From: Eledone cirrhosa
Lineage: Eukaryota
Length of the DNA: 64,000 nucleotides
Reading direction: 5' to 3'
Assembly (NCBI GenBank): GCA_964016885.1
Contig: OZ024757.1
Span: 10,106,001 to 10,170,000 of the forward strand
The translations under genes and the position numbers were made by a program. Positions 15,001 through 47,299 of this stretch are shown one piece after another. Below the pieces are notes generated by a model that saw only the letters and a list, made by a program, of their open reading frames with translations, did no database searches and was not told the DNA's origin. Position 1 is the stretch's first letter. The number at the start of each line of letters is the position of its first letter.

Positions 15001-18000
15001 AGTTGGGGGTAAGTTAAGTTAGGGGTATATTTAAGTTGGGGTTAAGTTAAGTTGGGGTTAAGTTAAGTTGGGGTTAAGGTAAGTTGGGGTTAAGTTAAGT
15101 TGGGGTTAAGTTAAGTTGGGGTTAATTTAAGTTGGGGTTAAGTTAAGTTGGGGTTAAGGTAAGTTGGGGTTAAGTTAAGTTGGGGTTAAGTTAAGTTGGG
15201 GTTACGTTAAGTTGGGGTTAAGTCGAGTTTGGGTTAAGTTAAGTTGGGGTTAAGTTAAGTGGGGGTTAAGTTAACTTGGGGTTAAGTTAAGTTGGGGCTA
15301 ATTTAAGTTGGTGTTAATTTAAGTTGGGGTTAAGTTAAGTTGGGGTTAAGTTAAGTTGGGGTTAAATTAAGCTGGGGTTAACTTAAGTAGGGGTTAAGTT
15401 AAGTTGGGTTAAGTTGGGATTAACTTAAGTTTGGGTTAAGTTAAGTTGGGGTTAAGTTAAGTTCGGATTGAGTCAAGTGTGGGGTTAAGTCAAGTTGGGG
15501 TTAAGTCAAGTTGGGTTTAAGTTAAGTTGGGGTTAAGTTAAGTTGGGGTTAAGTTAAGTTGGTGTTAAGTTAAGTTGGGGTTAAGTTAAGTTGGGGTTAA
15601 GTTAATATGGGGTTAAGTTAAGTTGGGGTTAAGTTAAGTTGGGGTTAAGTCAAGTTGGGGTTAAGTCAAGTTGGGGTTAAGTTAAGTTGGGGTTAAGTTA
15701 AGTTGGGGTTAAGTTAAGTTGGGGGTAAGTTAATTAAGTCGGGGGTAATTTAAGTTGGGGGTAAGTTAAGCTGGGGTTAAGTTAAATTGGGGTTAAGTTA
15801 AGTTGGGGTTAAGTTAAGTAGGGGTTAAGTTAAGTTGGGGTTAAGTTGGGGTTAAGTTAAGTTGGGGTTAAGTTAATTTGGGGTTAAGTTAAGTTGGGGT
15901 TAAGTTAAGTTGGGGTTAAGTTAAGTTGGGGGTAAGTTAAGTTAGGGGTAAGTTAAGTTGGGGTTAAGTTAAGTTGGGGTTACGTTAAGTTGGGGATAAG
16001 TTAAGTTGGGGTTAATTTAAGTTGGGGTTAAGTTAAGTTGGGGTTAAGGTAAGTTGGGGTTAAGTTAAGTTGGGGTTAAGTTAAGTTGGGGTTACGTTAA
16101 GTTGGGGTTAAGTTAAGTTGGGGTTAAGTTAAGTTGGGATTAAGTCAAGTTGGGGTTAAGTCAAGTTGGGGTTAAGTCAAGTTGGGGTTAAGTCAAGTTT
16201 GGGTTAAGTTAAATTGGGATTAAGTTAAGTTGGGGTTAAGTTAAGTTGGGGTAAGTTAAGTTGGAATTAAGTCAAGTTGGGGTTAAATCAAGTTGGGGTT
16301 AAGTCGAGTTGGGTTTAAGTTAAGTTGGGGTTCAGTTAAGTTGGGGCTAAGTTAAGTTGGGGTTAAGTTGGGGTTAAGTTAAGTTGGGGTTAAATCAAGT
16401 TGGGGTTAACTCAAGTTGGGGTTAAGTCAATTTGGGGTTAAGTCAAGTTGGGATTAAGTCAAGTTGGGGTTAAGTCAAGTTGGGGTTAAGTTAAGTTGGG
16501 GTTAAGTTAAGTTGGGGTTAAGTTAAGTTGGGGTTAAATTAAGTTGGGGGTAAGTTAATTAAGTCGGGGGTAATTTAAGTTGGGGGTAAGTTAAGCTGGG
16601 GTTAAGTTAAGTTGGGGTTAAGTTAAGTTGGGGTTAAGTTAAGTAGGGGTTAAGTTAAGTTGGGGTTAAGTTGGGGTTAAGTTAAGTTGGGGTTAAGTTA
16701 ATTTGGGGTTAAGTTAAGTTGGGGTTAAGTTAAGTTGGGGTTAAGTTAAGTTGGGGATAAGTTAAGTTCGGGTTAATTTAAGTTGGGGTTAAGTTATGTT
16801 GGGGTTAAGGTAAGTTGGGGTTAAGTTAAGTTGGGGTTAAGTTGGGGTTACGTTAAGTTGGGGTTAAGTTAAGTTGGGGTTAAGTTAAGTTGGGATTAAG
16901 TCAAGTTGGGGTTAAGTCAAGTTGGGGTTAAGTCAAGTTGGGGTTAAGTTAATTTAGGGGTAATTTAAGTTGGGGTTAAGTTAAGTTGGGGTTAAGGTAA
17001 GTTGGGGTTAAGTTAAGTTGGGGTTAAGTTAAGTTGGGGGGTAAGTTAAGTTAGGGGTAAGTCAAGTTGGGGTTAAATCAAGTTGGGTTTAAGTTAAGTT
17101 GGGGTTCAGTTAAGTTGGGGCTAAGTTAAGTTGGGGTTAAGTTGGGGTTAAGTTAAGTTGGGGTTAAGTTAAGTTGGGGTTAAGGTAAGTTGGGGTTAAG
17201 TTAAGTTGGGGTTAAGTTAAGTTGGGGGTAAGTTATGTTAGGGGTAATTCAAGTTGGGGTTAAATCAAGTTGTGTTTAAGTTAAGTTGGGGTTCAGTTAA
17301 GTTGGGGCTAAGTTAAGTTGGGGTTAAGTTAAGTTGGGGTTAAGTTAAGTTGGGGTTAAGTTAAGTTGGGGGTAAGTTAAGTTAGGGGTAATTTAAGTTG
17401 GGGTTAAGTTAAGTTGGGGTTAAGGTAAGTTGGGGTTAAGTTAAGTTGGGGTTAAGTTAAGTTGGGGGTAAGTTAAGTTAGGGGTAAGTTAAGTTGGGGT
17501 TAAGTTAAGTTGGGGTTAAGTTAAGTTGGGGATAAGTTAAGTTGGGGTTAATTTAAGTTGGGGTTAAGTTATGTTGGGGTTAAGGTAAGTTGGGGTTAAG
17601 TTAAGTTGGGGTTAAGTTAAGTTGGGGTTACCTTAAGTTGGGGTTAAGTTAAGTTGGGGTTAAGTTAAGTTGGGATTAAGTCAAGTTGGGGTTAAGTCAA
17701 GTTGGGGTTAAGTCAAGTTGGGGTTAAGTCAAGTTTGGGTTAAGTTAAGTTGGGGTTAAGTTAAGTTGGGGTTAAGTTAAGTTGGGATTGAGTCAAGTTG
17801 GGGTTAAGTTAAGTTGGGGTTAAGTCAAGTTGGGGTTAAATCAAGTTGGGTTTAAGTTAAGTTGGGGTTCAGTTAAGTTGGGGCTAAGTTAAGTTGGGGT
17901 TAAGTTGGGGTTAAGTTAAGTTGGGGTTAAGTTAAGTTGGGGTTAAGTTAAGTTGGGGGTAAGTTAAGTTAGGGGTAATTTAAGTTGGGGTTAAGTTAAG

Positions 18001-18800
18001 TTGGGGTTAAGGTAAGTTGGGGTTAAGTTAAGTTGGGGTTAAGTTAAGTTGGGGTTAAGTTAAGTTGGGTTTAAGTTAAGTTGGGATTAAGTCACGTTGG
18101 GGTTAAGTCAAGTTGGGGTTAAGTCAAGTTGGGGTTAATTCAAGTTGGGGTTAAGTCAAGTTGGGATTAAGTCAAGTTGGGGTTAAGTCAAGTTGGGGTT
18201 AAGTTAAGTTGGGGTTAAGTTAAGTTGGGGTTAAGTTAAGTTGGGTTTAAGTTAAGTTGGGGTTAAGTTAAGTAGGGGTTAAGTTAAGTTGGGGTTAAGT
18301 TGGGGTTAAGTTAAGTAGGGGTTAAGTTAAGTTGGGGTTAAGTTGGGGTTAAGTTAAGTTGGGGTTAAGTTAAGTTGGGTTAAGTTAAGTTGGGGTTAAT
18401 TAAGTTGGGGGTAAGTTAAGTTAGGGGTAAGTTAAGTTGGGGTTAATTTAAGTTGGGGTTAAGTTAAGTTGGGGTTAAGTTAAGTTGGGGTTAAGTTAAG
18501 TTGGGGTTAATTTAAGTTGGGGTTAAGTTAAGTTGGGGTTAAGGTAAGTTGGGGTTAAGTTAAGTTGGGGTTAAGTTAAGTTGGGGTTACGTTAAGTTGG
18601 GGTTAAGTTAAGTGGGGGTTAAGTTAACTTGGGGTTAAGTTAAGTTGGGGCTAATTTAAGTTGGTGTTAATTTAAGTTGGGGTTAAGTTAAGTTGGGGTT
18701 AAGTTAAGTTGGGGTTAAATTAAGCTGGGGTTAACTTAAGTAGGGGTTAAGTTAAGTTGGGTTAAGTTGGGATTAACTTAAGTTTGGGTTAAGTTAAGTT
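1..18800 (+). repeat. Left satellite sub-domain: mosaic of re-shuffled sub-kb to multi-kb blocks
   Basis: The marker TTCGGATTGAGTCAAGTGTGGGG recurs at ~148, 3448, 5733, 9443, 10897, 14514 and 15464 and was not seen further right. The domain is rich in TCAAG runs and TAGGGG; GGCG, GGAG and TTGAG runs are essentially absent. The right boundary is approximate. Confidence 0.8.
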
Positions 18801-21800
18801 GGGGTTAAGTTAAGTTGGGGTTAATTTAAGTTGGGGTTAAGTTAAGTTGGGGTTAAGTTAAGTTGGGGTTTAGTTAAGTTGGGGTTAAGTCAAGTTGGGG
18901 TTAATTCAAGTTGGGGTTAAGTTAAGTTGGGGTTAAGCTAAGTTGGGGTTAAGTTAAGTTGGGATTAAGTTAAGTTGGGGTTAAATCAAGTTGGGGTAAA
19001 GTTAAGTTGGGGTTAAGTTAAGTTGGGGGTAAGTTAGGTTGGGGGTAAGTTAAGTTGGGGGTAAGTTAAGTTGGGGTGAAGTTAAGTTGGGGTTAAGCTA
19101 AGTTGGGGTTAAGTTAAGTTGGGGTTAAGTTAAGTAGGGGTTGAGTTAAGTTGGGGGTAAGTTAAGTTGGGGTTAAGTTAAGTTGGGGTTAAGTTAAGTT
19201 GGGGTTAAGTTAAGTTGGGGCTAATTTAAGTTGGTGTTAATTTAAGTTGGGGTTAAGTTAAGTTGGGATTAAGTTAAGTTGGGGTTAAGTTAAGCTGGGG
19301 TTAACTTAAGTAGGGGTTAAGTTAAGTTGGGGTTAAGTTGGGATTAACTTAAGTTTGGGTTAAGTTAAGTTGGGGTTAAGTTGGGGTTAATTTAAGTTGG
19401 GTTTAAGTTAAGTTGGGGTTAAGTTAAGTTGGGGTTTAGTTAAGTTGGGGTTAAGTCAAGTTGGGGTTAATTCAAGTTGGGGTTAAGTTAAGTTGGGGTT
19501 AAGCTAAGTTGGGGTTAAGTTAAGTTGGTGTTAGTTAAGTTGGGGTTAAGTTAAGTTGGGGTTAAGTTAAGTTGGGGTTAAGTTAAGTTGGTGTTAACTT
19601 AAGTAGGGGTTAAGTTAAGTTGGGGTTAACTTAAGTTGGGATTAACTTAAGTTGGGGTTAACTTAAGTTGGGGTTAAGTTGGGGTTAAGTTAAGTTGGGG
19701 TTAATTTAAGTTGGGGTTAAGTTGGGATTAACTTAAGTTTGGGTTAAGTTAAGTTGGGGTTAAGTTAAGTTGGGGTTAATTTAAGTTCGGGTTAAGTTAA
19801 GTTGGGGTTAAGTTAAGTTGGGGTTTGGTTAAGTTGGGGTTAAGTCAAGTTGGGGTTAAGTCAAGTTGCGGTAAAGTCAAGTTGGGATTAAGTCAAGTTG
19901 GGGTTAAGTCAAGTTGGGGTTAAGTTACGTTGGGGTTAATTTAAGTTGGGGTTAAGTTAAGTTGGGGTTTAGTTAAGTTGGGGTTAAGTTAAGTTGGTGT
20001 TAACTTAAGTAGGGGTTAAGTTAAGTTGGGGTTAACTTAAGTTGGGATTAACTTAAGTTGGGGTTAACTTAAGTTGGGGTTAAGTTGGGGTTAAGTTAAG
20101 TTGGGGTTAATTTAAGTTGGGGTTAAGTTGGGATTAACTTAAGTTTGGGTTAAGTTAAGTTGGGGTTAAGTTAAGTTGGGGTTAATTTAAGTTCGGGTTA
20201 AGTTAAGTTGGGGTTAAGTTAAGTTGGGGTTTAGTTAAGTTGGGGTTAAGTCAAGTTGGGGTTAAGTCAAGTTGGGGTTAAGTCAAGTTGGGATTAAGTC
20301 AAGTTGGGGTTAAGTCAAGTTGGGGGTAAGTTAAGCTGGGGTTAAGTTAAGTTGGGGTTAAGTTAAGTTGGGGTAAAGTTAAGTTGGGGTTAAGTTAAGT
20401 TGGGGTTAAGTTAAGTTGGGGTTAAGTCAAGTTGGGGGTAAGTTAAGTTGGGGTTAAGTTAAGTTGGGGTTAAGTTAAGTTGGGGTTAAGTTAAGTTGGT
20501 GTTAATTTAAGTTGGTGTTAAGTTAAGTTGGGGTTAAGTTAAGTAGGGTTTAAGTTAAGTTGGGGTTAAGTTGGGGTTAAGTTAAGTTGGGGTTAAGTTA
20601 ATTTGGGGTTAAGTTAAGTTGGGGTTAAGTTAAGTTGGGGGTAAGTTAAGTTAGGGGTAAGTTAAGTTGGGGTTAAGTTAAGTTGGGGTTAAGTTAAGTT
20701 GGGGTTAAGTTAAGTTGGTGTTAATTTAAGTTGGTGTTAAGTTAAGTTGGGGTTAAGGTAAGTTGGGGTTAAGTTAAGTTGGGGTTAAGTTAAGTTGGGG
20801 TTACGTTAAGTTGGGGTTAAGTTAAGTTGGGGTTAAGTTAAGTTGGGATTAAGTCAAGTTGGGGTTAAGTCAAGTTGGGGTTAAGTCAAGTTGGGGTTAA
20901 GTCAAGTTTGGGTTAAGTTAAGTTGGGGTTAAGTTAAGTTGGGGTAAAGTTAAGTTGGGGTAAAGTAGAGTTGGAATTAAGTCAAGTTGGGGTTAAATCA
21001 AGTTGGGGTTAAGTCAAGTTGGGGTTACGTCAAGTTGGGGTTAAGTCAAGTTGGGATTAAGTCAAGTTGGGGTTAAGTCAAGTTGGGGTTAAGTTAAGTT
21101 GGGGTTAAATTAAGTTGGGGTTAAGTTAAGTTGGGGGTAAGTTAAGTTGGGGTTAAGTTAAGTTGGGGTTAAGTTAATTTGGGGTTAAGTTAAGTTGGGG
21201 TTCAGTTAAGTTGGGGTTAAGTTAAGTTGGGGGTAATTTATGTTGGGGGTAAGTTAAGTTGGGGTTAAATTAAGTTGGGGATAAGTTAAGTTGGGGGTAA
21301 GTTAAGTTGGGGGTAAGTTAAGTTGGGGTTAAGATAAGTTGGGGTTAAGTTAAGTTGGGGTTAACATAAGTTGGGGTTAACTTATAGTTGGGGTTAAATT
21401 AAGTTGGGGTTAAGTTGTGGTTCAGTTGGGGTTAAGTTAAGTTGGGGTTAAGTTAAGTTGGGGTTAAGTTAAGTTGGGGTTAAGTTAAGTTGTGGTTAAG
21501 TTAAGTTGGGGTTAATTTAAGTTGGGGTTAAGTTAAGTTGGGGTTAATTTAAGTTGGGGTTAATTTAAGTTGGGGTTAATTTAAGTTGGGGTTAAGTTAA
21601 GTTGGGGTTAAGTTAAGTTGGGGTTAAGTTAAGTTGGGGTTAAGTTGGGGTTAAGTTAACTTGGGGTTAAGTTGGGGTTAAGTTAAGTTGGGGTTAAGTT
21701 AAGTTGGGGTTAAGTTAAGTTGGGGTTAAGTCAAGTTGGGGTTAAGTCAAGTTGGGGTTAAGTTAAGTTAGGGTTAAGTTAAGTTGGGGTTAAGTCAAGT

Positions 21801-23119
21801 TGGGGTTAAGTCAAGTTGGGGTTAAGTCAAGTTGGGGTTAAGTTAAGTTAGGGTTAAGTTAAGTTGGGGTTAAGTTAAGTTGGGGATAAGTTAAGTTGGG
21901 GTTAAGTTAAGTTGGGGTTAAGTTAAGTTGGGGTTAATTTAAGTTGGGGTTAAGTTAAGTTGGGGTTAAGTTAAGTTAGGGTTAAGTTAAGTTGGGCTTA
22001 AGATAAGTTGGAGTTAAGTTAAGTTGGGGTTAAGTTAAGTTGGGGTTAAGTTAAGTTGGGGTAAATTTAAGTTGGGGTTAAGTTAAGTTGGGGCTGAGTT
22101 AAGTTGGGGTTAAGTTAAGTTGGGGTTAATTTATGTTGGGGTTAAGTTTAGTTGGGGTTAAGTTAAGTTGGGGTTAAGATATGTTGGGGCTAAGTTAAGT
22201 TGGTGTTAATTGAAGTTGGGGTTAAGTTAAGTTGGGGTTAAGTTAAGTTGGGGTTAAGTTAAGTTGGGGTTAAGTTAAGTTGGTGTTAACTTAAGTAGGG
22301 GTTAAGTTATTTGGGGTTAACTTAAGTTGGGGTTAACTTAAGTTGGGGTTAAGTTGGGGTTAACTTAAGTTGGGGTTAAGTTAAGTTGGGGTTAAGTTAA
22401 GTTGAGGTTAAGTTAATTTGGGGTTAAGTTGAGTTGGGGGTAAGTTAAGTTGGGGGTAAGTTAAGTTGGGGTTAAGTTAAGTTGGGGTTAAGTTAAGTTG
22501 GGGGTAAGTTAAGTTGGGGTTAAGTTGGGGTTAAGTTAAGTTGGGGTTAAGTTGGGGTTAAGTTAAGTTGGGGTTAAGTTAAGTTGGGGTTAAGTTAAGT
22601 TGGGGTTAAGTTAAGTTAGGGGTAAGTTAAGTTGGGGTTAAGTTAAGTTGGGGTTAAATTAAGTTGGGGTTATTTTAAGTTGGGGTTAAGTTAAGTTGGG
22701 GTTAATTTAAGTTGGGGTTAAGGTAAGTTGGGGTTCAGTTAAGTTGGGGTTAAGTTAAGTTGGGGGTAATTTATGTTGGGGGTAAGTTAAGTTGGGGTTA
22801 AGTTAAGTTGGGGATAAGTTAAGTTGGGGGTAAGTTAAGTTGGGGGTAAGTTAAGTTGGGGGTAAGTTAAGTTGGGGTGAAGTTAAGTTGGGGTTAAGCT
22901 AAGTTGGGGTTAAGTTAAGTAGGGGCTGAGTTAAGTTGGAGGTAAGTTAAGTTGGGCTTAAGTTAAGTTGGGGTTAAGTTAAGTTGGGGTTAACTTAAGT
23001 TGGGTTTAACTTAAGTTGGGGTTAAATTAAGTTGGGGTTAAGTTGGGGTTAAGATAAGTTGGGGTTAAGTTAAGTTGGGGTTAAGTTAAGTTGGGCTTCA
23101 GTTAAGTTGGGGTTAAGTT

Positions 23120-23263
23120 AACTTAACCCCAACTTAACTTAACCCCAACTTAACTTAACCCCAACTTAACTGAAGCCCAACTTAACTTAACCCCAACTTA
23201 ACTTAACCCCAACTTAACTTAACCCCAACTTAAATAACCCACAACTTAACTTAACCCCAACTT
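23120..23263 (-). repeat. Inverted satellite segment, copy 1 (144 bp = 9 x 16; AACTTAACTTAACCCC units)
   Basis: Orientation flips at GTT|AAC (23119/23120) and flips back at CTT|AAG (23263/23264). It contains TGAAGCCC, the reverse complement of GGGCTTCA at 23093-23100. Confidence 0.97.
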
Positions 23264-25769
23264 AAGTTGGGGTAAATTTAAGTTGGGGTTAAGTTAAGTT
23301 GGGGCTGAGTTAAGTTGGGGTTAAGTTAAGTTGGGGTTAATTTAAGTTGGGGTTAAGTTTAGTTGGGGTTAAGTTAAGTCGGGGTTAAGTTAAGTTGGGG
23401 TTAAGTTAAGTTGGGGTAAGTTAAGTTGGGGTTAAGTTAAGTTGGGGTTAAGTCAAGTTGGGGTTAAGTCAAGTTGGGGTTAAGTCAAGTTGGGGTTAAC
23501 TTAAGTTGGGGTTAAGTTAAGTTGGGGTTAAGTTAATTTGGGGTTAAGTTAAGTTGGCGTTCAGTTAAGTTGGGGTTAATTTAATTTGGGGTTAAGTTAA
23601 GTTGGGGTTAAGTTAAGTTGGGGTTAAGTTAAGTTAGGGTTAAATTAAGTTGGGGTTAAGTTAAGTTGGCGTTAAGTTAATTTGGGGTTAAGTTAAGTTG
23701 GGGTTAAGTCAAGTTGGGTTTAAGTCAAGTTGGGGTTAAATCAAGTTGGAGTTAACTTAAGTTTGGATTAACTTAAGTTGGGTTAACTTAAGTTGGGGTT
23801 AAGTTGGGGTTGACTTAAGTTGGGGTTGAGTTAAGTTGCGGTCGAGTTAAGTTGGGGTTGAGTTAAGTTGGGGTTAAGTTAAGTTGGGGGTAACTTTAAG
23901 TTGGGGTTAAGTTAAGTTGGGGTTAATTTAAGTTGGGGTTAAGTTAAGTTGGGGTTAAGTTAAGTTGGGGTTAAGTTAAGTTGGGGTTAAGTAAAGTTGG
24001 GGTTGAGTTAATTTGGGGTTGAATTAAGTTGGGGTTAGGTTAAGTTGGGGTTAAGTTAAGTTTGGTTTAAGTTAAGTTGGGGTTAAGTTAAGTTGGGGTT
24101 AAGTTAAGTTGGGATTAGGTTAAGTTGGGGTTAAGTTAAGTTAGGGTTAAGTTAAGTTGGGGTTAAGTCAAGTTGGGGTTAAGTCAAGTTGGGGTTAAGT
24201 CAAGTTGGGGTTAAGTTAAGTTAGGGTTAAGTTAAGTTGGGGTTAAGTTAAATTGGGGTTAAGTTGGGGTTAAGTTAAGTTGGGGTTAAGTTAAGTTGGG
24301 GTTAATTTAAGTTGGGGTTAAGTTAAGTTGGGGTTAAGTTAAGTTGGGGTTAAGTTAAATGGGCTTAAGTTAAGTTGGGGTTAAGTTAAGTTGGGGTTAA
24401 GTTAAGTTGGGGTTAAGTTAAGTTGGGGTAAATTTAAGTTGGGGTTAAGTTAAGTTGGGGCTGAATTAAGTTGGGGTTAAGTTAAGTTGGGGTTAATTTA
24501 TGTTGGGGTTAAGTTTAGTTGGGGTTAAGTTAAGTTGGGGTTAAGATAAGTTGGGGCTAAGTTAAGTTGGTGTTAATTGAAGTTGGGGTTAAGTTAAGTT
24601 GGGGTTAAGTTAAGTTGGGGTTAAGTTAAGTTGGGGTTAAGTTAAGTTGGTGTTAACTTAAGTAGGGGTTAAGTTAAGTTGGGGTTAACTTAAGTTGGGG
24701 TTAACTTAAGTTGGGGTTAACTTAAGTTGGGGTTAAGTTGGGGTTAACTTAAGTTGGGGTTAACTTAAGTTGGGGTTAAGTTAAGTTGGGGTTAAGTTAA
24801 GTTGGGGTTAAGTTAAGTTGGATTAAGTTACGTTGGGGGTAAGTTAAGTTGGGGATAAGTTAAGTTGGGGTTAAGTTAAGTTGAGGTTAAGTTAATTTGG
24901 GGTTAAGTTGAGTTGGGGGTAAGTTAAGTTGGGGGTAAGTTAAGTTGGGGTTAAGTTAAGTTGGGGTTAAGTTAAGTTGGGGGTAAGTTAAGTTGGGGTT
25001 AAGTTGGGGTTAAGTTAAGTTGGGGTTAAGTTGGGGTTAAGTTAAGTTGGGGTTAAGTTAAGTTGGGGTTAAGTTAAGTTGGGGTTAAGTTAAGTTGAGG
25101 GTAAGTTAAGTTAGGGGTAAGTTAAGTTGGGGTTAAGTTAAGTTGGGGTTAAATTAAGTTGGGGTTATTTTAAGTTGGGGTTAAGTTAAGTTGGGGTTAA
25201 TTTAAGTTGGGGTTAAGGTAAGTTGGGGTTCAGTTAAGTTGGGGTTAAGTTAAGTTGGGGGTAATTTATGTTGGGGGTAAGTTAAGTTGGGGTTAAGTTA
25301 AGTTGGGGATAAGTTAAGTTGGGTGTAAGTTAAGTTGGGGGTAAGTTAAGTTGGGGGTAAGTTAAGTTGGGGTGAAGTTAAGTTGGGGTTAAGCTAAGTT
25401 GGGGTTAAGTTAAGTAGGGGCTGAGTTAAGTTGGAGGTAAGTTAAGTTGGGGTTAAGTTAAGTTGGGGTTAAGTTAAGTTGGGGTTAACTTAAGTTGGGT
25501 TTAACTTAAGTTGGGGTTAAATTAAGTTGGGGTTAAGTTGGGGTTAAGATAAGTTGGGGTTAAGTTAAGTTGGGATTAAGTTAAATTGGGGTTAAGTTGT
25601 GGTTCAGTTGGGGTTAAGTTAAGTTGGGGTTAAGTTAAGTTGGGGTTAAGTTAAGTTGTGGTTAAGTTAAGTTGGGGTTAATTTAAGTTGGGATTAATTT
25701 AAGTTGGGGTTAATTTAAGTTGGGGTTAATTTAAGTTGGGGTTAATTTAAGTGGGGGTTAAGTTAAGTT

Positions 25770-25806
25770 GGGGTTAAGTTGGGGTTAAGTTGGGGTTAAG
25801 TTGGGG
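25770..25806 (+). other. Canonical G-quadruplex motif (G4 N7)3 G4 formed by three consecutive 11-mer variants
   Basis: The sequence GGGGTTAAGTTGGGGTTAAGTTGGGGTTAAGTTGGGG fits G3+N1-7 x4. This is a motif match only; folding is not shown. Confidence 0.55.
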
Positions 25807-26219
25807 TTAAGTTAACTTGGGGTTAAGTTGGGGTTAAGTTAAGTTGGGGTTAAGTTAAGTTGGGGTTAAGTTAAGTTGGGGTTAAGTTATGTTGGGGTTA
25901 AGTCAAGTTGGGGTTAAGTCAAGTTGAGGTTAAGTCAAGTTGGGGTTAATTTAAGTTAGGGTTAAGTTAAGTTGGGGTTAAGTCAAGTTGGGGTTAAGTC
26001 AAGTTGGGGTTAAATCAAGTTGGGGTTAAGTTAAGTTAGGGTTAAGTTAAGTTGGGGTTAAGTTAACTTGGGGTTAAGTTGGGGTTAAGTTAAGTTGGGG
26101 TTAAGTTAAGTTGGGGTTAATTTAAGTTGGGGTTAAGTTAAGTTGGGGGTTATTTAAGTTGGGGTTAAGTTAAGTTGGGGTTAAGTTAAGTTGGGCTTCA
26201 GTTAAGTTGGGGTTAAGTT

Positions 26220-26363
26220 AACTTAACCCCAACTTAACTTAACCCCAACTTAACTTAACCCCAACTTAACTGAAGCCCAACTTAACTTAACCCCAACTTA
26301 ACTTAACCCCAACTTAACTTAACCCCAACTTAAATAACCCCCAACTTAACTTAACCCCAACTT
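26220..26363 (-). repeat. Inverted satellite segment, copy 2 (144 bp), 3100 bp downstream of copy 1
   Basis: Same junctions and sequence as copy 1 except one base (AATAACCCCC here, AATAACCCAC in copy 1). It mirrors two upstream markers, GGGCTTCA (26193-26200) and GGGGGTTATTT (26145-26155). Confidence 0.97.
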
Positions 26364-26469
26364 AAGTTGGGGTAAATTTAAGTTGGGGTTAAGTTAAGTT
26401 GGGGCTGAGTTAAGTTGGGGTTAAGTTAAGTTGGGGTTAATTTAAGTTGGGGTTAAGTTAATTTGGGGT

Positions 26470-29400
26470 TAAGTTAAGTTGGCGTTAAGTTAAGTTGGGG
26501 TTAAATTAAGTTGGGGTTAAGTTAAGTTGGGGTAAGTTAAGTTGGGGTTAAGTTAAGTTGGGGTTAAGTCAAGTTGGGGTTAAGTCAAGTTGGGGTTAAG
26601 TCAAGTTGGGGTTAACTTAAGTTGGGGTTAAGTTAAGTTGGGGTTAAGTTAATTTGGGGTTAAGTTAAGTTGGCGTTAAGTTAAGTTGGGGTTAAGTTAA
26701 TTTGGGGTTAAGTTAAGTTGGGGTTAAGTTAAGTTGGGGTTAAGTTAAGTTAGGGTTAAATTAAGTTGGCGTTAAGTTAAGTTGGCGTTAAGTTAAGTTG
26801 GGGTTAAGTTAAGTTGGGGTTAAGTCAAGTTGGGTTTAAGTCAAGTTGGGGTTAAATCAAGTTGGAGTTAACTTAAGTTTGGATTAACTTAAGTTGGGTT
26901 AACTTAAATTGGGGTTAAGTTGGGGTTGACTTAAGTTGGGGTTGAGTTAAGTTGGGGTCGAGTTAAGTTGGGGTTGAGTTAAGTTGGGGTTAAGTTAAGT
27001 TGGGGGTAACTTTAAGTTGGGGTTAAGTTAAGTTGGGGTTAATTTAAGTTGGGGTTAAGTTAAGTTGGGGTTAAGTTAAGTTGGGGTTAAGTAAAGTTGG
27101 GGTTGAGTTAATTTGGGGTTGAATTAAGTTGGGGTTAGGTTAAGTTGGGGTTAAGTTAAATTTGGTTTAAGTTAAGTTGGGGTTAAGTTAAGTTGGGGTT
27201 AATTTAAGTTGGGATTAGGTTAAGTTGGGGTTAAGTTAAGTTAGGGTTAAGTTAAGTTGGGGTTAAGTCAAGTTGGGGTTAAGTCAAGTTGGGGTTAAGT
27301 CAAGTTGGGGTTAAGTTAAGTTAGGGTTAAGTTAAGTTGGGGTTAAGTTAAATTGGGGTTAAGTTGGGGTTAAGTTAAGTTGAGGTTAAGTTAAGTTGGG
27401 GTTAATTTAAGTTGGGGTTAAGTTAAGTTGGGGTTAAGTTAAGTTGGGGTTAAGTTAAGTTGGGGTTGAGATAAGTTGGGGCTAATTTAAGTTGGTGTTA
27501 ATTGAAGTTGGGGTTAAGTTAAGTTGGGGTTAAGTTAAGTTGGGGTTAAGTTAAGTTGGGGTTAAGTTAAGTTGGTGTTAACTTAAGTAGGGGTTAAGTT
27601 AAGTTGGGGTTAACTTAAGTTGGGGTTAACTTAAGTTGGGGTTAACTTAAGTTGGGGTTAAGTTGGGGTTAACTTAAGTTGGGGTTAAGTTAAGTTGGGG
27701 TTAAGTTAAGTTGGGGTTAAGTTAAGTTGGGGTTAAGTTAAGTTGTATTAAGTTACGTTGGGGGTAAGTTAAGTTGGGGATAAGTTAAGTTGGGGTTAAG
27801 TTAAGTTGAGGTTAAGTTAATTTGGGGTTAAGTTGAGTTGGGGGTAAGTTAAGTTGGGGGTAAGTTAAGTTGGGGTTAAGTTAAGTTGGGGTTAAGTTAA
27901 GTTGGGGGTAAGTTAAGTTGGGGTTAAGTTGGGGTTAAGTTAAGTTGGGGTTAAGTTGGGGTTAAGTTAAGTTGGGGTTAAGTTAAGTTGGGGTTAAGTT
28001 AAGTTGGGGGTAAGTTAAGTTAGGGGTAAGTTAAGTTGGGGTTAAGTTAAGTTGGGGTTAAATTAAGTTGGGGTTATTTTAAGTTGGGGTTAAGTTAAGT
28101 TGGGGTTAATTTAAGTTGGGGTTAAGGTAAGTTGGGGTTCAGTTAAGTTGCGGTTAAGTTAAGTTGGGGGTAATTTATGTTGGGGGTTAGTTAAGTTGGG
28201 GTTAAGTTAAGTTGGGGATAAGTTAAGTTGGGGGTAAGTTAAGTTGGGGGTAAGTTAAGTTGGGGGTAAGTTAAGTTGGGGGTAAGTTAAGTTGGGGTTA
28301 AGTTAAGTTGGGGTTAAGTTAAGTTGGGGTTGAGTTAAGTTGGGGTTGAGTTAAGTTGGGGTCGAGTTAAGTTGGGGTTGAGTTAAGTTGGGGTTAAGTT
28401 AAGTTGGGGTTAAGTTAAGTTGGGGTTAAGTTAAGTTGGGATTAGGTTAAGTTGGGGTTAAGTTAAGTTGGGGTTAAGTTAAGTCGGAGTAAAGTTAAGT
28501 TGGGGTTAAGTTAAGTTGGGGGTAAGTTAAGTTGTGGTTAAGTTAAGTTGGGGTTAAGTTGGGGTTAAGTTAAGTTGGGGTTGAGTTAAGTTGGGGTTGA
28601 ATTAAGTTGGGATTGAGTTAAGTTGGAGTTAAGTTAAGTTGGGGTTAAGTTAAGTTGGGGTTAAGTTAAGTTGGCGTTAAATTAAGTTGGGGTTAAGTTA
28701 AGTTGGGGTTACGTTAAGTTGGGGTTAAGTTAAGTTGGGGTTAAGTCAAGTTGGGGTTAAATCAAGTTGGGGTTAACTTAAGTTTGGATTAACTTAAGTT
28801 GGGTTAACTTAAGTTGGGATTAAGTTGGGGTTAACTTAAGTTGGGGTTAAGTTAAGTTGAGGCTAAGTTAAGTTGGGGCTGAGTTAAATTGGGGTTAAGT
28901 TAAGTTAGGGTTAAGTTAAGTTGGGGTTAAGGTAAGTTGGGGTTAAGTTAAGTTGGGGTTAAGTTAAGTTGGGGTTAAGTTAAGTTGGGGTTAACTTAAG
29001 TTGGGGTTAACTTAAGTTGGGGTTAAGTTGGGGTTAACTTAAGTTGGGGTTAATTTAAGTTGGGGTTGAGTTAAGTTGGGGTTGATTTCAGTTTGGGTTG
29101 AGTTAAGTTGGGGTCGAGTTAAGTTGGGGTTGTGTTAAGTTGGGGTTAAGTTAAGTTGGGGTTAAGTTAAGTTGGGGTTGAGTTAAGTTGGGATCGAGGT
29201 AAGTTGGGGTTGAGTTAAGTTGGGGTTAAGTTAAGTTGGGGTTAACTTCAGTTGGGGTTAACTTAAGTTGGGGTTAAGTTAAGTTGGGGTTAAGTTTAGG
29301 TAGGGTTAAGTTAAGTTGGGGTTAAGTTAAGTTGGGGTTAAGTTAAGTTGGGGTTAAGTTAAGTTGGGGTTGAGTTAAGTTAGGGTCGAGTTAAGTTGGG

Positions 29401-32400
29401 GTTGAGTTAATTTGAGGTTGAATTAAGTTGGGGTTAGGTTAAGTTGGGGTTAAGTTAAATTTGGTTTAAGTTAAGTTGGGGTTAAGTTAAGTTGGGGTTA
29501 AGTTAAGTTGGGATTAGATTAAGTTGGGGTTAAGTTAAGTTGGGGTTGAGTTAAGTTGGGGTTAAGTTAAGTTGGCGTTAAGTTAAGTTGGGGTTAAGTT
29601 AAGTTGGGGTTAAGTTAAGTTGGGGTTAATTTAAGTTGGGGTTAAGTTAAGTTGGGGTTAAGTTAAGTTGGGGTTAAGTTAAGTTGGGGTTAAGTTAAGT
29701 TGGAGTTAAGTTAAGTTGGGGTTAATTTAAGTTGGGGTTAAGTTAAGTCGGGGTAAAGTTAAGTTGGGGTTAAGTTAAGTTGGGGGTAAGTTAATTTGGG
29801 GTTAAGTTAAGTTGGGGTTTAGTTTATTTGGGGTTAAGTCAAGTCGGGGTTAAGTCAAGTTGGGGTTAAGTTAAGTTGGGGTTAAGTTAAGTCGGGGTTA
29901 AGTTAAGTTGGGATTAAGTTAAGTCGGGGTTAAGTTAAGTTGGGGTTAAGTTAAGTTGGGGTAAGTTAAGTTGGGGTTAAGTTAAGTTGGGGTTTACTTA
30001 AGTTGGGGTTAAGTCAAGTTGGGGTTAAGTCAAGTTGGGGTTAAGTCAAGTTGGGGTTAAGTTAAGTTGGGGTTAAGTTAAGTTGGGGTTAAATTAAGTT
30101 GGGGTTAAGTTAAGTTGGGGTTAAGTTAAGTTGGCGTTAAGTTAAGTTGGTGTTAAGTTAACTTGGGGTTAAGTTAACTTGGGGTTAAGTTAAGTTGGGG
30201 TTAAGTCAAGTTGGGGTTAAATCAAGTTGGGGTTAACTTAAGTTTGGATTAACTTAAATTGGGTTAACTTAAGTTGGGGTTAAGTTGGGGTTAACTTAAG
30301 TTGGGGTTAAGTTAAGTTGGGGTTAAGTTAAGTTGGGGTTGAGTTAAGTTGGGGTTGAGTTAAGTTGGGGTTGAGTTAAGTTGGGGTTGATTTAAGTTGG
30401 GGTTGAGTTAAGTTGGGGTCGAGTTAAGTTGGGGTTGAGTTAAGTTGGCGTTAAGTTAAGTTGGGGTTAAATTAAGTTGGGGTTAAGTTAAGTTGGCGTA
30501 AGTTAAGTTGGGGTTAAGTTAAGTTGGGGTTAAGTCAAGTTGGGGTTAAGTCAAGTTGGGGTTAAGTCAAGTTGGGGTTAACTTAAGTTGGGGTTAAGTT
30601 AAGTTGGGGTTAAGTTAATTTGGGGTTAAGTTAAGTTGGCGTTAAGTTAAGTTGGGGTTAAGTTAATTTGGGGTTAAGTTAAGTTGGGGTTAAGTTAAGT
30701 TAGGGTTAAATTAAGTTGGCGTTAAGTTAAGTTGGCGTTAAGTTAAGTTGGGGTTAAGTTAAGTTGGGGTTAAGTCAAGTTGGGTTTAAGTCAAGTTGGG
30801 GTTAAATCAAGTTGGAGTTAACTTAAGTTTGGATTAACTTAAGTTGGGTTAACTTAAATTGGGGTTAAGTTGGGGTTGACTTAAGTTGGGGTTGAGTTAA
30901 GTTGGGGTCGAGTTAAGTTGGGGTTGAGTTAAGTTGGGGTTAAGTTAAGTTGGGGGTAACTTTAAGTTGGGGTTAAGTTAAGTTGGGGTTAATTTAAGTT
31001 GGGGTTAAGTTAAGTTGGGGTTAAGTTAAGTTGGGGTTAAGTAAAGTTGGGGTTGAGTTAATTTGGGGTTGAATTAAGTTGGGGTTAGGTTAAGTTGGGG
31101 TTAAGTTAAATTTGGTTTAAGTTAAGTTGGGGTTAAGTTAAGTTGGGGTTAATTTAAGTTGGGATTAGGTTAAGTTGGGGTTAAGTTAAGTTAGGGTTAA
31201 GTTAAGTTGGGGTTAAGTCAAGTTGGGGTTAAGTCAAGTTGGGGTTAAGTCAAGTTGGGGTTAAGTTAAGTTAAGGTTAAGTTAAGTTGGGGTTAAGTTA
31301 AATTGGGGTTAAGTTGGGGTTAAGTTAAGTTGAGGTTAAGTTAAGTTGGGGTTAATTTAAGTTGGGGTTAAGTTAAGTTGGGGTTAAGTTAAGTTGGGGT
31401 TAAGTTAAGTTGGGGTTGAGATAAGTTGGGGCTAATTTAAGTTGGTGTTAATTGAAGTTGGGGTTAAGTTAAGTTGGGGTTAAGTTAAGTTGGGGTTAAG
31501 TTAAGTTGGGGTTAAGTTAAGTTGGTGTTAACTTAAGTAGGGGTTAAGTTAAGTTGGGGTTAACTTAAGTTGGGGTTAACTTAAGTTGGGGTTAAGTTGG
31601 GGTTAACTTAAGTTGGGGTTAAGTTAAGTTGGGGTTAAGTTAAGTTGGGGTTAAGTTAAGTTGTATTAAGTTACGTTGGGGGTAAGTTAAGTTGGGGATA
31701 AGTTAAGTTGGGGTTAAGTTAAGTTGAGGTTAAGTTAATTTGGGGTTAAGTTGAGTTGGGGGTAAGTTAAGTTGGGGGTAAGTTAAGTTGGGGTTAAGTT
31801 AAGTTGGGGTTAAGTTAAGTTGGGGGTAAGTTAAGTTGGGGTTAAGTTGGGGTTAAGTTAAGTTGGGGTTAAGTTGGGGTTAAGTTAAGTTGGGGTTAAG
31901 TTAAGTTGGGGTTAAGTTAAGTTGGGGGTAAGTTAAGTTAGGGGTAAGTTAAGTTGGGGTTAAGTTAAGTTGGGGTTAAATTAAGTTGGGGTTATTTTAA
32001 GTTGGGGTTAAGTTAAGTTGGGGTTAATTTAAGTTGGGGTTAAGGTAAGTTGGGGTTCAGTTAAGTTGCGGTTAAGTTAAGTTGGGGGTAATTTATGTTG
32101 GGGGTTAGTTAAGTTGGGGTTAAGTTAAGTTGGGGATAAGTTAAGTTGGGGGTAAGTTAAGTTGGGGGTAAGTTAAGTTGGGGGTAAGTTAAGTTGGGGG
32201 TAAGTTAAGTTGGGGTTAAGTTAAGTTGGGGTTAAGTTAAGTTGGGGTTGAGTTAAGTTGGGGTTGAGTTAAGTTGGGGTCGAGTTAAGTTGGGGTTGAG
32301 TTAAGTTGGGGTTAAGTTAAGTTGGGGTTAATTTAAGTTGGGGTTAAGTTAAGTTGGGATTAGGTTAAGTTGGGGTTAAGTTAAGTTGGGGTTAAGTTAA

Positions 32401-35400
32401 GTCGGAGTAAAGTTAAGTTGGGGTTAAGTTAAGTTGGGGGTAAGTTAAGTTGTGGTTAAGTTAAGTTGGGGTTAAGTTGGGGTTAAGTTAAGTTGGGGTT
32501 GAGTTAAGTTGGGGTTGAATTAAGTTGGGATTGAGTTAAGTTGGAGTTAAGTTAAGTTGGGGTTAAGTTAAGTTGGGGTTAAGTTAAGTTGGCGTTAAAT
32601 TAAGTTGGGGTTAAGTTAAGTTGGGGTTACGTTAAGTTGGGGTTAAGTTAAGTTGGGGTTAAGTCAAGTTGGGGTTAAATCAAGTTGGGGTTAACTTAAG
32701 TTTGGATTAACTTAAGTTGGGTTAACTTAAGTTGGGATTAAGTTGGGGTTAACTTAAGTTGGGGTTAAGTTAAGTTGAGGCTAAGTTAAGTTGGGGCTGA
32801 GTTAAATTGGGGTTAAGTTAAGTTAGGGTTAAGTTAAGTTGGGGTTAAGGTAAGTTGGGGTTAAGTTAAGTTGGGGTTAAGTTAAGTTGGGGTTAAGTTA
32901 AGTTGGGGTTAACTTAAGTTGGGGTTAACTTAAGTTGGGGTTAAGTTGGGGTTAACTTAAGTTGGGGTTAATTTAAGTTGGGGTTGAGTTAAGTTGGGGT
33001 TGATTTCAGTTTGGGTTGAGTTAAGTTGGGGTCGAGTTAAGTTGGGGTTGTGTTAAGTTGGGGTTAAGTTAAGTTGGGGTTAAGTTAAGTTGGGGTTGAG
33101 TTAAGTTGGGATCGAGGTAAGTTGGGGTTGAGTTAAGTTGGGGTTAAGTTAAGTTGGGGTTAACTTCAGTTGGGGTTAACTTAAGTTGGGGTTAAGTTAA
33201 GTTGGGGTTAAGTTTAGGTAGGGTTAAGTTAAGTTGGGGTTAAGTTAAGTTGGGGTTAAGTTAAGTTGGGGTTAAGTTAAGTTGGGGTTGAGTTAAGTTA
33301 GGGTCGAGTTAAGTTGGGGTTGAGTTAATTTGAGGTTGAATTAAGTTGGGGTTAGGTTAAGTTGGGGTTAAGTTAAATTTGGTTTAAGTTAAGTTGGGGT
33401 TAAGTTAAGTTGGGGTTAAGTTAAGTTGGGATTAGATTAAGTTGGGGTTAAGTTAAGTTGGGGTTGAGTTAAGTTGGGGTTAAGTTAAGTTGGCGTTAAG
33501 TTAAGTTGGGGTTAAGTTAAGTTGGGGTTAAGTTAAGTTGGGGTTAATTTAAGTTGGGGTTAAGTTAAGTTGGGGTTAAGTTAAGTTGGGGTTAAGTTAA
33601 GTTGGGGTTAAGTTAAGTTGGAGTTAAGTTAAGTTGGGGTTAATTTAAGTTGGGGTTAAGTTAAGTCGGGGTAAAGTTAAGTTGGGGTTAAGTTAAGTTG
33701 GGGGTAAGTTAATTTGGGGTTAAGTTAAGTTGGGGTTTAGTTTATTTGGGGTTAAGTCAAGTCGGGGTTAAGTCAAGTTGGGGTTAAGTTAAGTTGGGGT
33801 TAAGTTAAGTCGGGGTTAAGTTAAGTTGGGATTAAGTTAAGTCGGGGTTAAGTTAAGTTGGGGTTAAGTTAAGTTGGGGTAAGTTAAGTTGGGGTTAAGT
33901 TAAGTTGGGGTTTACTTAAGTTGGGGTTAAGTCAAGTTGGGGTTAAGTCAAGTTGGGGTTAAGTCAAGTTGGGGTTAAGTTAAGTTGGGGTTAAGTTAAG
34001 TTGGGGTTAAATTAAGTTGGGGTTAAGTTAAGTTGGGGTTAAGTTAAGTTGGCGTTAAGTTAAGTTGGTGTTAAGTTAACTTGGGGTTAAGTTAACTTGG
34101 GGTTAAGTTAAGTTGGGGTTAAGTCAAGTTGGGGTTAAATCAAGTTGGGGTTAACTTAAGTTTGGATTAACTTAAATTGGGTTAACTTAAGTTGGGGTTA
34201 AGTTGGGGTTAACTTAAGTTGGGGTTAAGTTAAGTTGGGGTTAAGTTAAGTTGGGGTTGAGTTAAGTTGGGGTTGAGTTAAGTTGGGGTTGAGTTAAGTT
34301 GGGGTTGATTTAAGTTGGGGTTGAGTTAAGTTGGGGTCGAGTTAAGTTGGGGTTGAGTTAAGTTGGCGTTAAGTTAAGTTGGGGTTAAATTAAGTTGGGG
34401 TTAAGTTAAGTTGGCGTAAGTTAAGTTGGGGTTAAGTTAAGTTGGGGTTAAGTCAAGTTGGGGTTAAGTCAAGTTGGGGTTAAGTCAAGTTGGGGTTAAC
34501 TTAAGTTGGGGTTAAGTTAAGTTGGGGTTAAGTTAATTTGGGGTTAAGTTAAGTTGGCGTTAAGTTAAGTTGGGGTTAAGTTAATTTGGGGTTAAGTTAA
34601 GTTGGGGTTAAGTTAAGTTAGGGTTAAATTAAGTTGGCGTTAAGTTAAGTTGGCGTTAAGTTAAGTTGGGGTTAAGTTAAGTTGGGGTTAAGTCAAGTTG
34701 GGTTTAAGTCAAGTTGGGGTTAAATCAAGTTGGAGTTAACTTAAGTTTGGATTAACTTAAGTTGGGTTAACTTAAATTGGGGTTAAGTTGGGGTTGACTT
34801 AAGTTGGGGTTGAGTTAAGTTGGGGTCGAGTTAAGTTGGGGTTGAGTTAAGTTGGGGTTAAGTTAAGTTGGGGGTAACTTTAAGTTGGGGTTAAGTTAAG
34901 TTGGGGTTAATTTAAGTTGGGGTTAAGTTAAGTTGGGGTTAAGTTAAGTTGGGGTTAAGTAAAGTTGGGGTTGAGTTAATTTGGGGTTGAATTAAGTTGG
35001 GGTTAGGTTAAGTTGGGGTTAAGTTAAATTTGGTTTAAGTTAAGTTGGGGTTAAGTTAAGTTGGGGTTAATTTAAGTTGGGATTAGGTTAAGTTGGGGTT
35101 AAGTTAAGTTAGGGTTAAGTTAAGTTGGGGTTAAGTCAAGTTGGGGTTAAGTCAAGTTGGGGTTAAGTCAAGTTGGGGTTAAGTTAAGTTAAGGTTAAGT
35201 TAAGTTGGGGTTAAGTTAAATTGGGGTTAAGTTGGGGTTAAGTTAAGTTGAGGTTAAGTTAAGTTGGGGTTAATTTAAGTTGGGGTTAAGTTAAGTTGGG
35301 GTTAAGTTAAGTTGGGGTTAAGTTAAGTTGGGGTTGAGATAAGTTGGGGCTAATTTAAGTTGGTGTTAATTGAAGTTGGGGTTAAGTTAAGTTGGGGTTA

Positions 35401-38284: not shown

Positions 38285-38519
38285 GGTTAAGTTAAGTTGG
38301 GGTTAAGTTAAGTTGGGGTTAAGTTAAGTTTGGTTTAAGTTAAGTTGGGGTTAAGTTAAGTTGGGGTTAAGTTAAGTTGGGATTAGGTTAAGTTGGGGTT
38401 AAGTTAAGTTGGGGTTAAGTTAAGTTGTGGTTAATTTAAGTTGGGGTTAAGTTAAGTTGGGGTTAAGTTAAGTTGGTGTTAAGGTAAGTTGGGGTTAAGT
38501 TAAGTTGGGGTTAAGTTAA

Positions 38520-46170: not shown

Positions 46171-47299
46171 GTTGGGGGTAAGTTAATTTGGGGTTAAGTT
46201 AAGTTGGGGTTTAGTTAATTTGGGGTTAAGTCAAGTTGGGGTTAAGTCAAGTTGGGGTTAAGTTAAGTTGGGGTTAAGTTAAGTCGGGGTTAAGTTAAGT
46301 TGGGGTTAAGTTAAGTCGGGGTTAAGTTAAGTTGGGGTTAAGTTAAGTTGGGGTAAGTTAAGTTGGGGTTAAGTTAAGTTGGGGTTTACTTAAGTTGGGG
46401 TTAAGTCAAGTTGGGGTTAAGTCAAGTTGGGGTTAAGTCAAGTTGGGGTTAAGTTAAGTTGGGGTTAAGTTAAGTTGGGGTTAAATTAAGTTGGGGTTAA
46501 GTTAAGTTGGGGTTAAGTTAAGTTGGCGTTAAGTTAAGTTGGGGTTAAGTTAACTTGGGGTTAAGTTAACTTGGGGTTAAGTTAAGTTGGGGTTAAGTCA
46601 AGTTGGGGTTAAATCAAGTTGGGGTTAACTTAAGTTTGGATTAACTTAAGTTGGGTTAACTTAAGTTGGGGTTAAGTTGGGGTTAACTTAAGTTGGGGTT
46701 AAGTTAATTTGGGGTTAAGTTAAGTTGGGGTTCAGTTAAGTTGGGGTTGATTTAAGTTGGGGTTGAGTTAAGTTGGGGTCGAGTTAAGTTGGGGTTGAGT
46801 TAAGTTGGGGTTAAGTTAAGTTGGGGTTAAGTTAAGTTGGGGTTAAGTTAAGTTTGGTTTAAGTTAAGTTGGGGTTAAGTTAAGTTGGGGTTAAGTTAAG
46901 TTGGGATTAGGTTAAGTTGGGGTTAAGTTAAGTTGGGGTTAAGTTAAGTTGTGGTTAATTTAAGTTGGGGTTAAGTTAAGTTGGGGTTAAGTTAAGTTGG
47001 TGTTAAGGTAAGTTGGGGTTAAGTTAAGTTGGGGTTAAGTTAAGTTGGGGTTAAGTTAAGTTGGGGTTAACTTAAGTTGGGGTTAACTTAAGTTGGGGTT
47101 AAGTTGGGGTTAACTTAATTGGGGTTAAGTTGGGGTTAACTTAAGTTGGGGTTAAGTTAAGTTGGGGTTGAGTTAAGTTGGGGTTGATTTAACTTGGGGT
47201 TGAGTTAAGTTGGAGTCGAGTTAAGTTGGGGTTGAGTTAAGTTGGTGTTAAATTAAGTTGGGGTTAAGTTAAGTTGGAGTTAAGTTAAGTTGGGGTTAA

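What the first reader, a model, noticed from the sequence alone, without database searches (positions are those of the whole stretch)
23040..26410. TTAA-to-TTAA inverted duplication with its pre-event allele still in the array: a reconstructable template switch
Seen: the only C-rich tracts in 64 kb are two 144-bp segments. Both of their breakpoints sit at the exact centre of the palindromic TTAA. They are not simple flips, because the rare marker GGGCTTCA is present both forward (just upstream) and reversed (TGAAGCCC) inside the segment; in copy 2 so is GGGGGTTATTT. Seen: uninverted paralogues at ~21994-22100 and ~24361-24465 read GGGCTT-unit + 3 units + GGGGTAAATTT..GGGGCTGA. In the inverted allele the last 32 bp before AAGTTGGGGTAAATTT are missing in forward orientation, and the same length of repeat begins the inverted tract. 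Inference: synthesis left at one TTAA, jumped two units ahead onto the opposite strand, copied 144 nt backwards past its exit point, then resumed at the same TTAA it had jumped to. This fits an inter-strand, microhomology-mediated template switch, a known mechanism class that is seldom resolvable inside a simple satellite. One unit-count mismatch between the markers (2 forward vs 3 inverted) requires a later slippage.
Basis: partly seen in the sequence, partly recalled or inferred. Interest (0 to 1): 0.75.

Follow-up and report, generated by a model that had tools for sequence, protein, structure and literature searches.

The report
Template-switch inversion in a 16-base satellite
A 144-base piece of a simple repeat lies back-to-front in three near-identical copies, and was most likely made once, when DNA copying briefly jumped to the other strand at the repeat's own four-letter palindrome; this is a known kind of copying error, seen here unusually clearly inside repetitive DNA.

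Summary
The two 144-bp reversed tracts (23120-23263, 26220-26363) are there, in an uninterrupted 637-kb array of a 16-bp satellite; a third copy lies 57 kb downstream, and the array has no other strand switch. All three share both junctions, so they are likely copies of one event. Both junctions overlap by TTAA (chance 7.8% each), so a break at its 'exact centre' cannot be read. Rare markers are mirrored across the left junction, the shape of a '3-1-2-4' inter-strand template switch (Löytynoja and Goldman 2017). The title overstates: the copies at 21994 and 24361 are true paralogues but lack both markers; they are sisters, and the pre-event allele is absent. Two-step histories need only one or two more events, so the one-step model gets 0.55. 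On contig C28 the same satellite holds three further families of inverted tracts; 10 of 11 junction types are at TTAA (5 of 6 found without a TTAA pattern), but one end of the commonest family is not. Raw reads were not examined. The scan earlier noted an amplified founder junction in another satellite of this genome. Known mechanism, clean new example.

The parts
1..64000 (+). 16-bp satellite, unit AAGTTGGGGTTAAGTT (two TTAA palindromes per unit), with 11-bp variants and kilobase higher-order repeats; part of an uninterrupted array of about 637 kb (G000:C18:9896556-10533200)
   Evidence: (1442 of 4037 forward pieces canonical)
23120..23263 (-). Inverted tract, copy 1 (9 units; ends placed only to within the 4-bp TTAA overlaps); one private substitution
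23118..23121 (.). Left junction of copy 1, TTAA overlap (second TTAA of the unit on both arms)
23262..23265 (.). Right junction of copy 1, TTAA overlap
23056..23119 (+). Remnant of the forward arm of copy 1 (marker GGGCTTCAG at 23093); upstream of it the flank comes from another place in the higher-order repeat, the exchange lying within about 23056-23087
26220..26363 (-). Inverted tract, copy 2 (9 units): markers reversed at 26270 (GGGCTTCAG) and 26332 (GGGGGTTATTT)
26218..26221 (.). Left junction of copy 2, TTAA overlap
26362..26365 (.). Right junction of copy 2, TTAA overlap
26108..26219 (+). Forward arm of copy 2: a GGGGTTAATTT unit, then GGGGGTTATTT (26145) and GGGCTTCAG (26193), mirrored in the tract with one unit fewer between them
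26364..26443 (+). Right anchor (GGGGTAAATTT unit ... GGGGCTGA), shared by the three inverted copies and the two sisters only
21909..22132 (+). Uninverted sister 1: colinear with the tract turned back plus right anchor, but without the two diagnostic markers
   Evidence: 6 mismatches in 224 bp, no gap
24277..24499 (+). Uninverted sister 2: colinear with the tract turned back (4 mismatches and a 1-bp gap in 144 bp), without the two diagnostic markers

Best explanation
Three near-identical 144-bp reversed tracts with TTAA at both ends sit in this satellite array, and they likely descend from one replication error in which the growing strand likely left its template at a TTAA, annealed to a TTAA two units ahead on the opposite strand, copied eight or nine units backwards past its exit point and returned at the TTAA where it had landed. 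Shown: the tracts, their junctions, the mirrored markers, the colinear sisters, the three copies. Inferred: the single origin, the order of switches (type 3-1-2-4), one later one-unit slip (in the forward arm if GGGGGTTATTT is a changed GGGGTTAATTT unit, as the alignment to the sisters suggests), and the spread to three places by ordinary segmental copying inside the array. No function is proposed; it is a neutral scar.
For: Both junctions overlap by TTAA; a random forward-to-reverse join of this unit does so in 20 of 256 phase pairs. Two markers found nowhere else in the 637-kb array stand forward and reversed on the two sides of the left junction. The tract ends exactly at the right anchor that follows the same 144 bp in two uninverted sisters. 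No foreign bases at the junctions, and no gap of 80 bp without repeat words inside the array. Copies differ as real duplicates do: copy 1 against copy 2, 12 mismatches and two 16-bp gaps in 1 kb of right flank and 1 substitution in the tract; copy 2 against copy 3, 0, 2 and 4 mismatches in three successive kb. [quoted passage not shown] An unrelated family on C28 has the same shape at its turn: marker mirrored in 29 of 30 copies, inverted arm reaching about four units further, both ends at TTAA in 29 of 30. One-unit slips are common among those copies.
Against: The ancestor that the model needs (both markers once, forward, then three units and the anchor) is not in the array. The unit count does not fit without a later slip, and the forward arm holds an extra GGGGTTAATTT unit that needs an earlier two-unit duplication. 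Rival two-step histories cost only one or two more events in an array where unit gains, losses and unequal exchanges are common; copy 1 itself shows such an exchange two units from the marker. In the C28 family the mirror covers only the five or six units next to the turn, its return point is a different TTAA from its landing point, and no uninverted copy was found. One copy of the large C28 family shows a later flip across the turn (C28:130478317), so arms do exchange after the first event. One end of that large family is not at TTAA.
Confidence: 0.55

Rival explanations
1. Inversion first, mirror later: the 144 bp were inverted in place between two TTAA (type 1-3-2-4), and the markers reached the left flank afterwards, by copying from the inverted arm or by unequal exchange with a paralogue.
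For: The tract turned back is exactly colinear with both sisters. It would explain why the markers never occur outside inverted loci. Plain inversion is the commonest switch type, 45% (PMC5453318). Arms exchange after the event on C28, and copy 1 had its left flank replaced.
Against: Needs one or two more events; no copy with an inverted tract and an unmarked left flank among 3 of 3 copies; the one flip seen on C28 is reciprocal and does not duplicate markers.
Confidence: 0.2
2. Tandem duplication of about seven units first, then a plain inversion between two TTAA that starts between the two copies.
For: Short tandem duplications are everywhere in the unit map; the spacing mismatch is just as easy here.
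Against: One more event than the best model; the all-forward intermediate is absent; the left break must fall between the duplicates, and the same coincidence would be needed for the C28 family.
Confidence: 0.15
3. Assembly or library artefact (fold-back or chimeric read).
For: Raw reads were not examined; satellite assemblies can be wrong.
Against: Two switches 144 bp apart, three copies with the same junctions but separately diverged flanks and a private change inside one tract; hundreds of diverged tracts of other families on C28.
Confidence: 0.04
4. Cut and rejoin at TTAA by an enzyme (a piggyBac-type transposase leaves TTAA ends; recalled knowledge, not from a call), or an inversion made while a retroelement landed.
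For: All clean junctions are TTAA; earlier notes of this scan describe retroelement-linked inversions in other satellites of this genome (unchecked).
Against: No transposon remnant or foreign base at either junction or anywhere in the array; cutting and rejoining alone does not duplicate markers; TTAA is the only overlap of 4 bp or more that this unit offers, so it needs no enzyme.
Confidence: 0.04
5. Intra-strand fold-back at the TTAA where synthesis also resumed, with later loss of two units at the tip and one further up.
For: The left junction is a palindrome without spacer.
Against: The uninverted sequence folds weakly (-24.5 kcal/mol for 301 nt against -133.6 for the inverted copy, no shuffles), so there is little stem to prime from; two later deletions are needed; no intra-strand events were found in the human data (PMC5453318).
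Confidence: 0.02

Closest known systems
Short-range template switch, type 3-1-2-4 of the four-point model (Löytynoja and Goldman 2017, PMC5453318; Walker et al. 2021, PMC7954356; passages read)
   Same: A reverse-complement copy of nearby sequence giving an inverted repeat with an inverted spacer; inter-strand; return point not before exit point.
   Different: Here it lies inside a simple satellite, which both studies filtered out (repeat-masked donors excluded); the ancestor is known only from sisters; the product was later copied to three places.
Strand switches in human satellite arrays (HSat3 on chr9, beta satellite: over 200 breakpoints; 10.1101/2021.07.12.452052 and 10.64898/2026.07.22.740206; passages read)
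   Same: Orientation changes inside satellite arrays, rare in some arrays and counted in hundreds in others, as C18 (3 tracts) against C28 (hundreds).
   Different: In the passages read those switches are counted, not resolved to a junction sequence or a mechanism ('template switch' and 'microhomology' have 0 occurrences in the second paper's main text).
Tribolium macro-dyad satellites (PMC13081366; passages read)
   Same: A few conserved inversion junctions amplified to many copies with the array, as in the C28 families.
   Different: Arms of kilobases to tens of kilobases with degenerate units at the turn; here the C18 tract is 144 bp with clean TTAA junctions and only three copies.
FoSTeS / MMBIR rearrangements (as described in the introduction of PMC5453318)
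   Same: Short microhomology at both junctions, inverted duplicated segment.
   Different: Far smaller, both switches within about 150 bp, no inserted foreign bases.

Membership tests
Short-range template switch, type 3-1-2-4 | Middle fragment is the reverse complement of sequence next to the exit point | tested here: met
   Tract turned back matches the sisters' 144 bp before the anchor with 6 mismatches (sister 1) or 4 and a 1-bp gap (sister 2)
Short-range template switch, type 3-1-2-4 | Product is an inverted repeat plus an inverted spacer (order 3, 1, 2, 4) | tested here: met
   Both markers mirrored in copies 2 and 3, one in copy 1; two units present only in the tract
Short-range template switch, type 3-1-2-4 | An observed ancestral sequence gives the product in one step | tested here: inconclusive
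   No allele with the markers uninverted in 637 kb; from the sisters four other changes are needed, one of them after the event
Short-range template switch, type 3-1-2-4 | Arises during replication at one fork | not testable with these tools
   Sequence alone cannot separate it from repair or two-step histories
Microhomology-mediated rearrangement (FoSTeS/MMBIR-like) | Microhomology at both junctions above chance | tested here: met
   TTAA at 2 of 2 junctions; 20 of 256 random joins do so; 5 of 6 junctions found without a TTAA pattern, 10 of 11 junction types in all
Amplified inversion junctions in satellites (Tribolium macro-dyads) | Conserved junction repeated through the array | tested here: met
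   3 copies on C18; 1417 pattern matches per strand genome-wide, the listed ones on C18 and C28
Amplified inversion junctions in satellites (Tribolium macro-dyads) | Arms of kilobases forming array-scale symmetry | tested here: not met
   C18 tracts are 144 bp; the rest of the 637 kb has one orientation
Fold-back or chimeric-read artefact | Unique, not inherited with diverged flanks | tested here: not met
   Three copies with shared junctions and separate mutations
Fold-back or chimeric-read artefact | Absent from raw reads | not tested
   No reads were laid on the stretch
piggyBac-type cut at TTAA (recalled) | Element ends or remnants at the TTAA sites | tested here: not met
   No foreign bases at the junctions, no interruption of 80 bp or more in the array

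The most novel reading that the evidence does not exclude
A satellite whose unit carries its own short palindromes makes its own polarity switches: one-step template switches at TTAA create short inverted tracts, array expansion multiplies them (3 copies on C18, about 30 and several hundred on C28), and the tracts then serve as crossover points for flips and long inversions. This would be a general, sequence-predictable origin for the hundreds of strand switches counted but not explained in human and beetle satellites.
Probability: 0.3. Interest if true: 0.6.

Novelty: new member of a known kind. Interest (0 to 1): 0.36.

Why it matters
Strand switches are common in satellite arrays, but the papers read count them without a junction-level origin, and the two genome-wide template-switch scans read here excluded repeat-masked DNA. 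This array gives four independent tract families whose junctions can be read to the base, nearly all at the unit's own palindrome. That makes a simple prediction testable in complete assemblies: switches should fall at self-complementary words of the monomer. The mechanism itself is known, and nothing suggests a function.

Tried and rejected
Public runs: three runs hold 0.60 of 15 sampled words of 26190-26400, but 87 of 138 distinct 31-mers of that stretch (0.63) occur elsewhere in the sampled satellite, so the share says nothing on the junctions; no reads were laid, so read support is open. Search for the pre-event allele: 1 forward match genome-wide, on C28 at 134175761, none on C18; I did not analyse that place further and take it as a recurrent mutation. 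Search for an uninverted copy of the second C28 family: none (0 matches; 30 of 30 matches lie at the family's turn). An early idea that junctions use only the symmetric register (same TTAA of the unit on both arms) was rejected: two C28 families use the mixed register at both ends. The two single C28 turns at 131964581 and 132859241 are not mirror images, so they are not inverted duplications. Literature: six 16-letter rotations of the unit, 0 papers; satellite + inversion + microhomology or template switching, 1 unrelated listing; palindromic monomer + TTAA + junction, 0 papers; two searches listed 18 and 9 papers, of which I opened two; a search on the organism label from earlier notes gave 2 unrelated listings. 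Supplements were not seen (length distribution in PMC5453318 Fig. S3; breakpoint tables of the two preprints) and may bear on how unusual a 144-bp tract and such junctions are.
Full report
Setting. The whole window is one tandem array with a 16-bp period. Written from the second TTAA, the unit is AAGTTGGGGTTAAGTT; 1442 of 4037 forward pieces are canonical, the rest carry substitutions or are 11 bp long. The window is G000:C18:10106001-10170000 in a 3.0-Gb genome. I fetched 849 kb around it; the array runs without a break from 9896556 to 10533200, about 637 kb. Earlier AI notes of this scan call the animal a probable octopus; I did not test that and nothing here rests on it. The unit was not found in print.

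The observation. An orientation scan finds exactly two reversed stretches in the window: 23120-23263 and 26220-26363, nine units each, differing at one base. A pattern search found a third at C18:10188796, and the scan of the whole array finds these three and no other. Each end is a TTAA that can be read in either orientation, so each breakpoint is placed only within four bases; the 'exact centre' is a convention. A random join of a forward and a reversed array gives such an overlap in 20 of 256 phase pairs, and TTAA is the only overlap of 4 bp or more that the unit allows.

Unit map ('.' is a canonical unit, T is GGGGTTAATTT, M1 is GGGGGTTATTT, M2 is GGGCTTCAG, m is GGGCTTAAG, A is the GGGGTAAATTT anchor). 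Sister 2 (anchor at 24420) reads.. T... m... A; sister 1 (anchor at 22053) has the same layout with three private changes. Copy 2 reads.. T. M1.. M2. then the tract, which turned back reads. M1... M2.. ., then A. Copy 3 is the same with one unit fewer upstream. Copy 1 keeps only.. M2. before the tract; further left it continues as another part of the higher-order repeat. The anchor occurs five times in 637 kb, at these five loci. The tract turned back plus 80 bp of right flank matches sister 1 without a gap at 6 mismatches in 224 bp (next best 12; sister 2 needs a 1-bp gap and so is not in that list).

What does not hold is the title's 'pre-event allele'. Neither sister has M1 or the C of M2. 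Within the array both markers occur only at the three inverted loci, and M2 followed by further forward units has no match on C18. The sisters differ by 4 mismatches in 1 kb of right flank, copies 1 and 2 by 12, copies 2 and 3 by 0 to 4 per kb; so the inversion is likely older than the split of the sisters, and they are cousins of its ancestor. The alignment also puts M1 on the T unit (two changes) and keeps the spacing from M1 to M2 to A of the tract equal to that of the sisters. The arm that slipped by one unit may thus be the forward one, and the forward arm needs an earlier duplication of 'T .'. If M1 arose on its own instead, the copied tract was 128 nt and gained a unit.

Mechanism. From the sister state the shortest path that I could count has five steps: duplication of two units, the M1 change, the M2 change, one template switch, one unit lost. 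In the switch the new strand leaves at the TTAA after 'M2 .', lands on the opposite strand two units ahead, copies back past its exit and returns where it landed. This is type 3-1-2-4 of Löytynoja and Goldman, an inverted repeat with an inverted spacer, 23% of their human-chimp events; they found only inter-strand types and worked on unmasked sequence (PMC5453318, passages), as did Walker et al. (PMC7954356, passages). Duplication followed by plain inversion takes six steps, inversion followed by exchange up to seven. That margin is thin in an array where unit slips and unequal exchanges are common, hence 0.55. The three copies with separately diverged flanks make an artefact unlikely, but no reads were examined.

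Census elsewhere. Two patterns with a free gap gave 1417 and 521 matches per strand; only the first 100 rows of each were listed, all on C18 and C28, and many junctions match twice. In 400 kb sampled from C28 a script found 120 switches in 26 junction strings, which I grouped by eye with their flanking markers. Family 1 (most rows; tracts of about 120-490 bp inside the higher-order repeat) turns at GGGGTTAACCCC, but its other end reads CCC(A/T)AAGTCGG and has no TTAA overlap. Family 2 (128.6-129.6 Mb, 30 copies by marker) has TTAA at both ends in 29 of 30, the thirtieth running on as a long reversed arm, and mirrors a rare marker across its turn in 29 of 30; the mirror covers only five or six units and no uninverted copy was found. 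Family 3 (127.42 Mb, 2 copies seen) is a 69-bp tract with TTAA at both ends. Three single junctions (130474811, 131964581, 132859241) are at TTAA; the first sits on a family 1 tract and is likely a deletion that removed the old end, which shows that a TTAA junction alone does not prove a template switch. With the two C18 junctions, 10 of 11 junction types are at TTAA. Several were found by patterns that ask for or favour TTAA; among the six that were not (C18 both ends, family 1 both ends, far ends of families 2 and 3) it is 5 of 6 (binomial 1.6e-5 at 0.078; the two ends of one event are not independent, and unlisted rows may hide other types).

Later life of tracts. One family 1 copy (C28:130478317) has the segment around its turn flipped relative to its neighbours; at 132857198 a reversed stretch of at least 7 kb ends at the family 1 far junction; one family 2 turn opens a long reversed arm. 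These suggest that short tracts act as crossover points for larger inversions (inference). They also keep alive the rival in which the C18 markers were mirrored after a plain inversion.

Comparison and verdict. A junction-level template-switch account inside a simple satellite was not found, which cover open full texts only. The finding is real, the mechanism class is known, and the reconstruction is weaker than its title says. What the follow-up adds is the census, which points to the unit's own palindrome as the usual switch point. Interest 0.36; new member of a known kind.

Noticed in passing
L003:1512-1655 (G000:C18:10188796-10188939): Third copy of the same inverted tract, 56.6 kb beyond copy 2, in a segment of about 4 kb nearly identical to that of copy 2.
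   Followed up: yes
G000:C28, about 124.6-134.2 Mb (L039-L087): A much larger array of the same 16-bp satellite with hundreds of short inverted tracts built into its higher-order repeats and with long stretches in opposite orientation.
   Followed up: partly
L049, G000:C28:130478317: The segment around the turn of one family 1 tract is flipped, swapping markers between the arms.
   Followed up: partly
L055, G000:C28:132857198 and 132859241; L053, 131964581: Junctions of long inversions: one reuses the family 1 far junction, two are new TTAA turns that are not mirror images.
   Followed up: partly
L039-L042, G000:C28:124560001-124598000: A different, longer-unit satellite built of TTGGGG and TAAGTC-like words adjoins the 16-bp array; possibly related to it.
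   Followed up: no
L059-L064, G000:C28:128.56-128.65 Mb: The higher-order repeat of family 2 includes a non-satellite, AT-rich piece of several hundred bases about 800 bp from each turn.
   Followed up: no
window 1-64000: The frequent variants GGGGTTAACTTAAG (151 units) and AACTTGGGG (26 units) turn the unit's near-palindrome AAGTTAAGTT into a perfect 10-bp palindrome; they could be small template-switch corrections, and they would lengthen the microhomology at a junction.
   Followed up: no
window 27361-27480 and G000:C18:10189800-10190000: Relatives of sister 2 from which the stretch between the GGGGTTAATTT unit and the units after the anchor has been deleted.
   Followed up: partly
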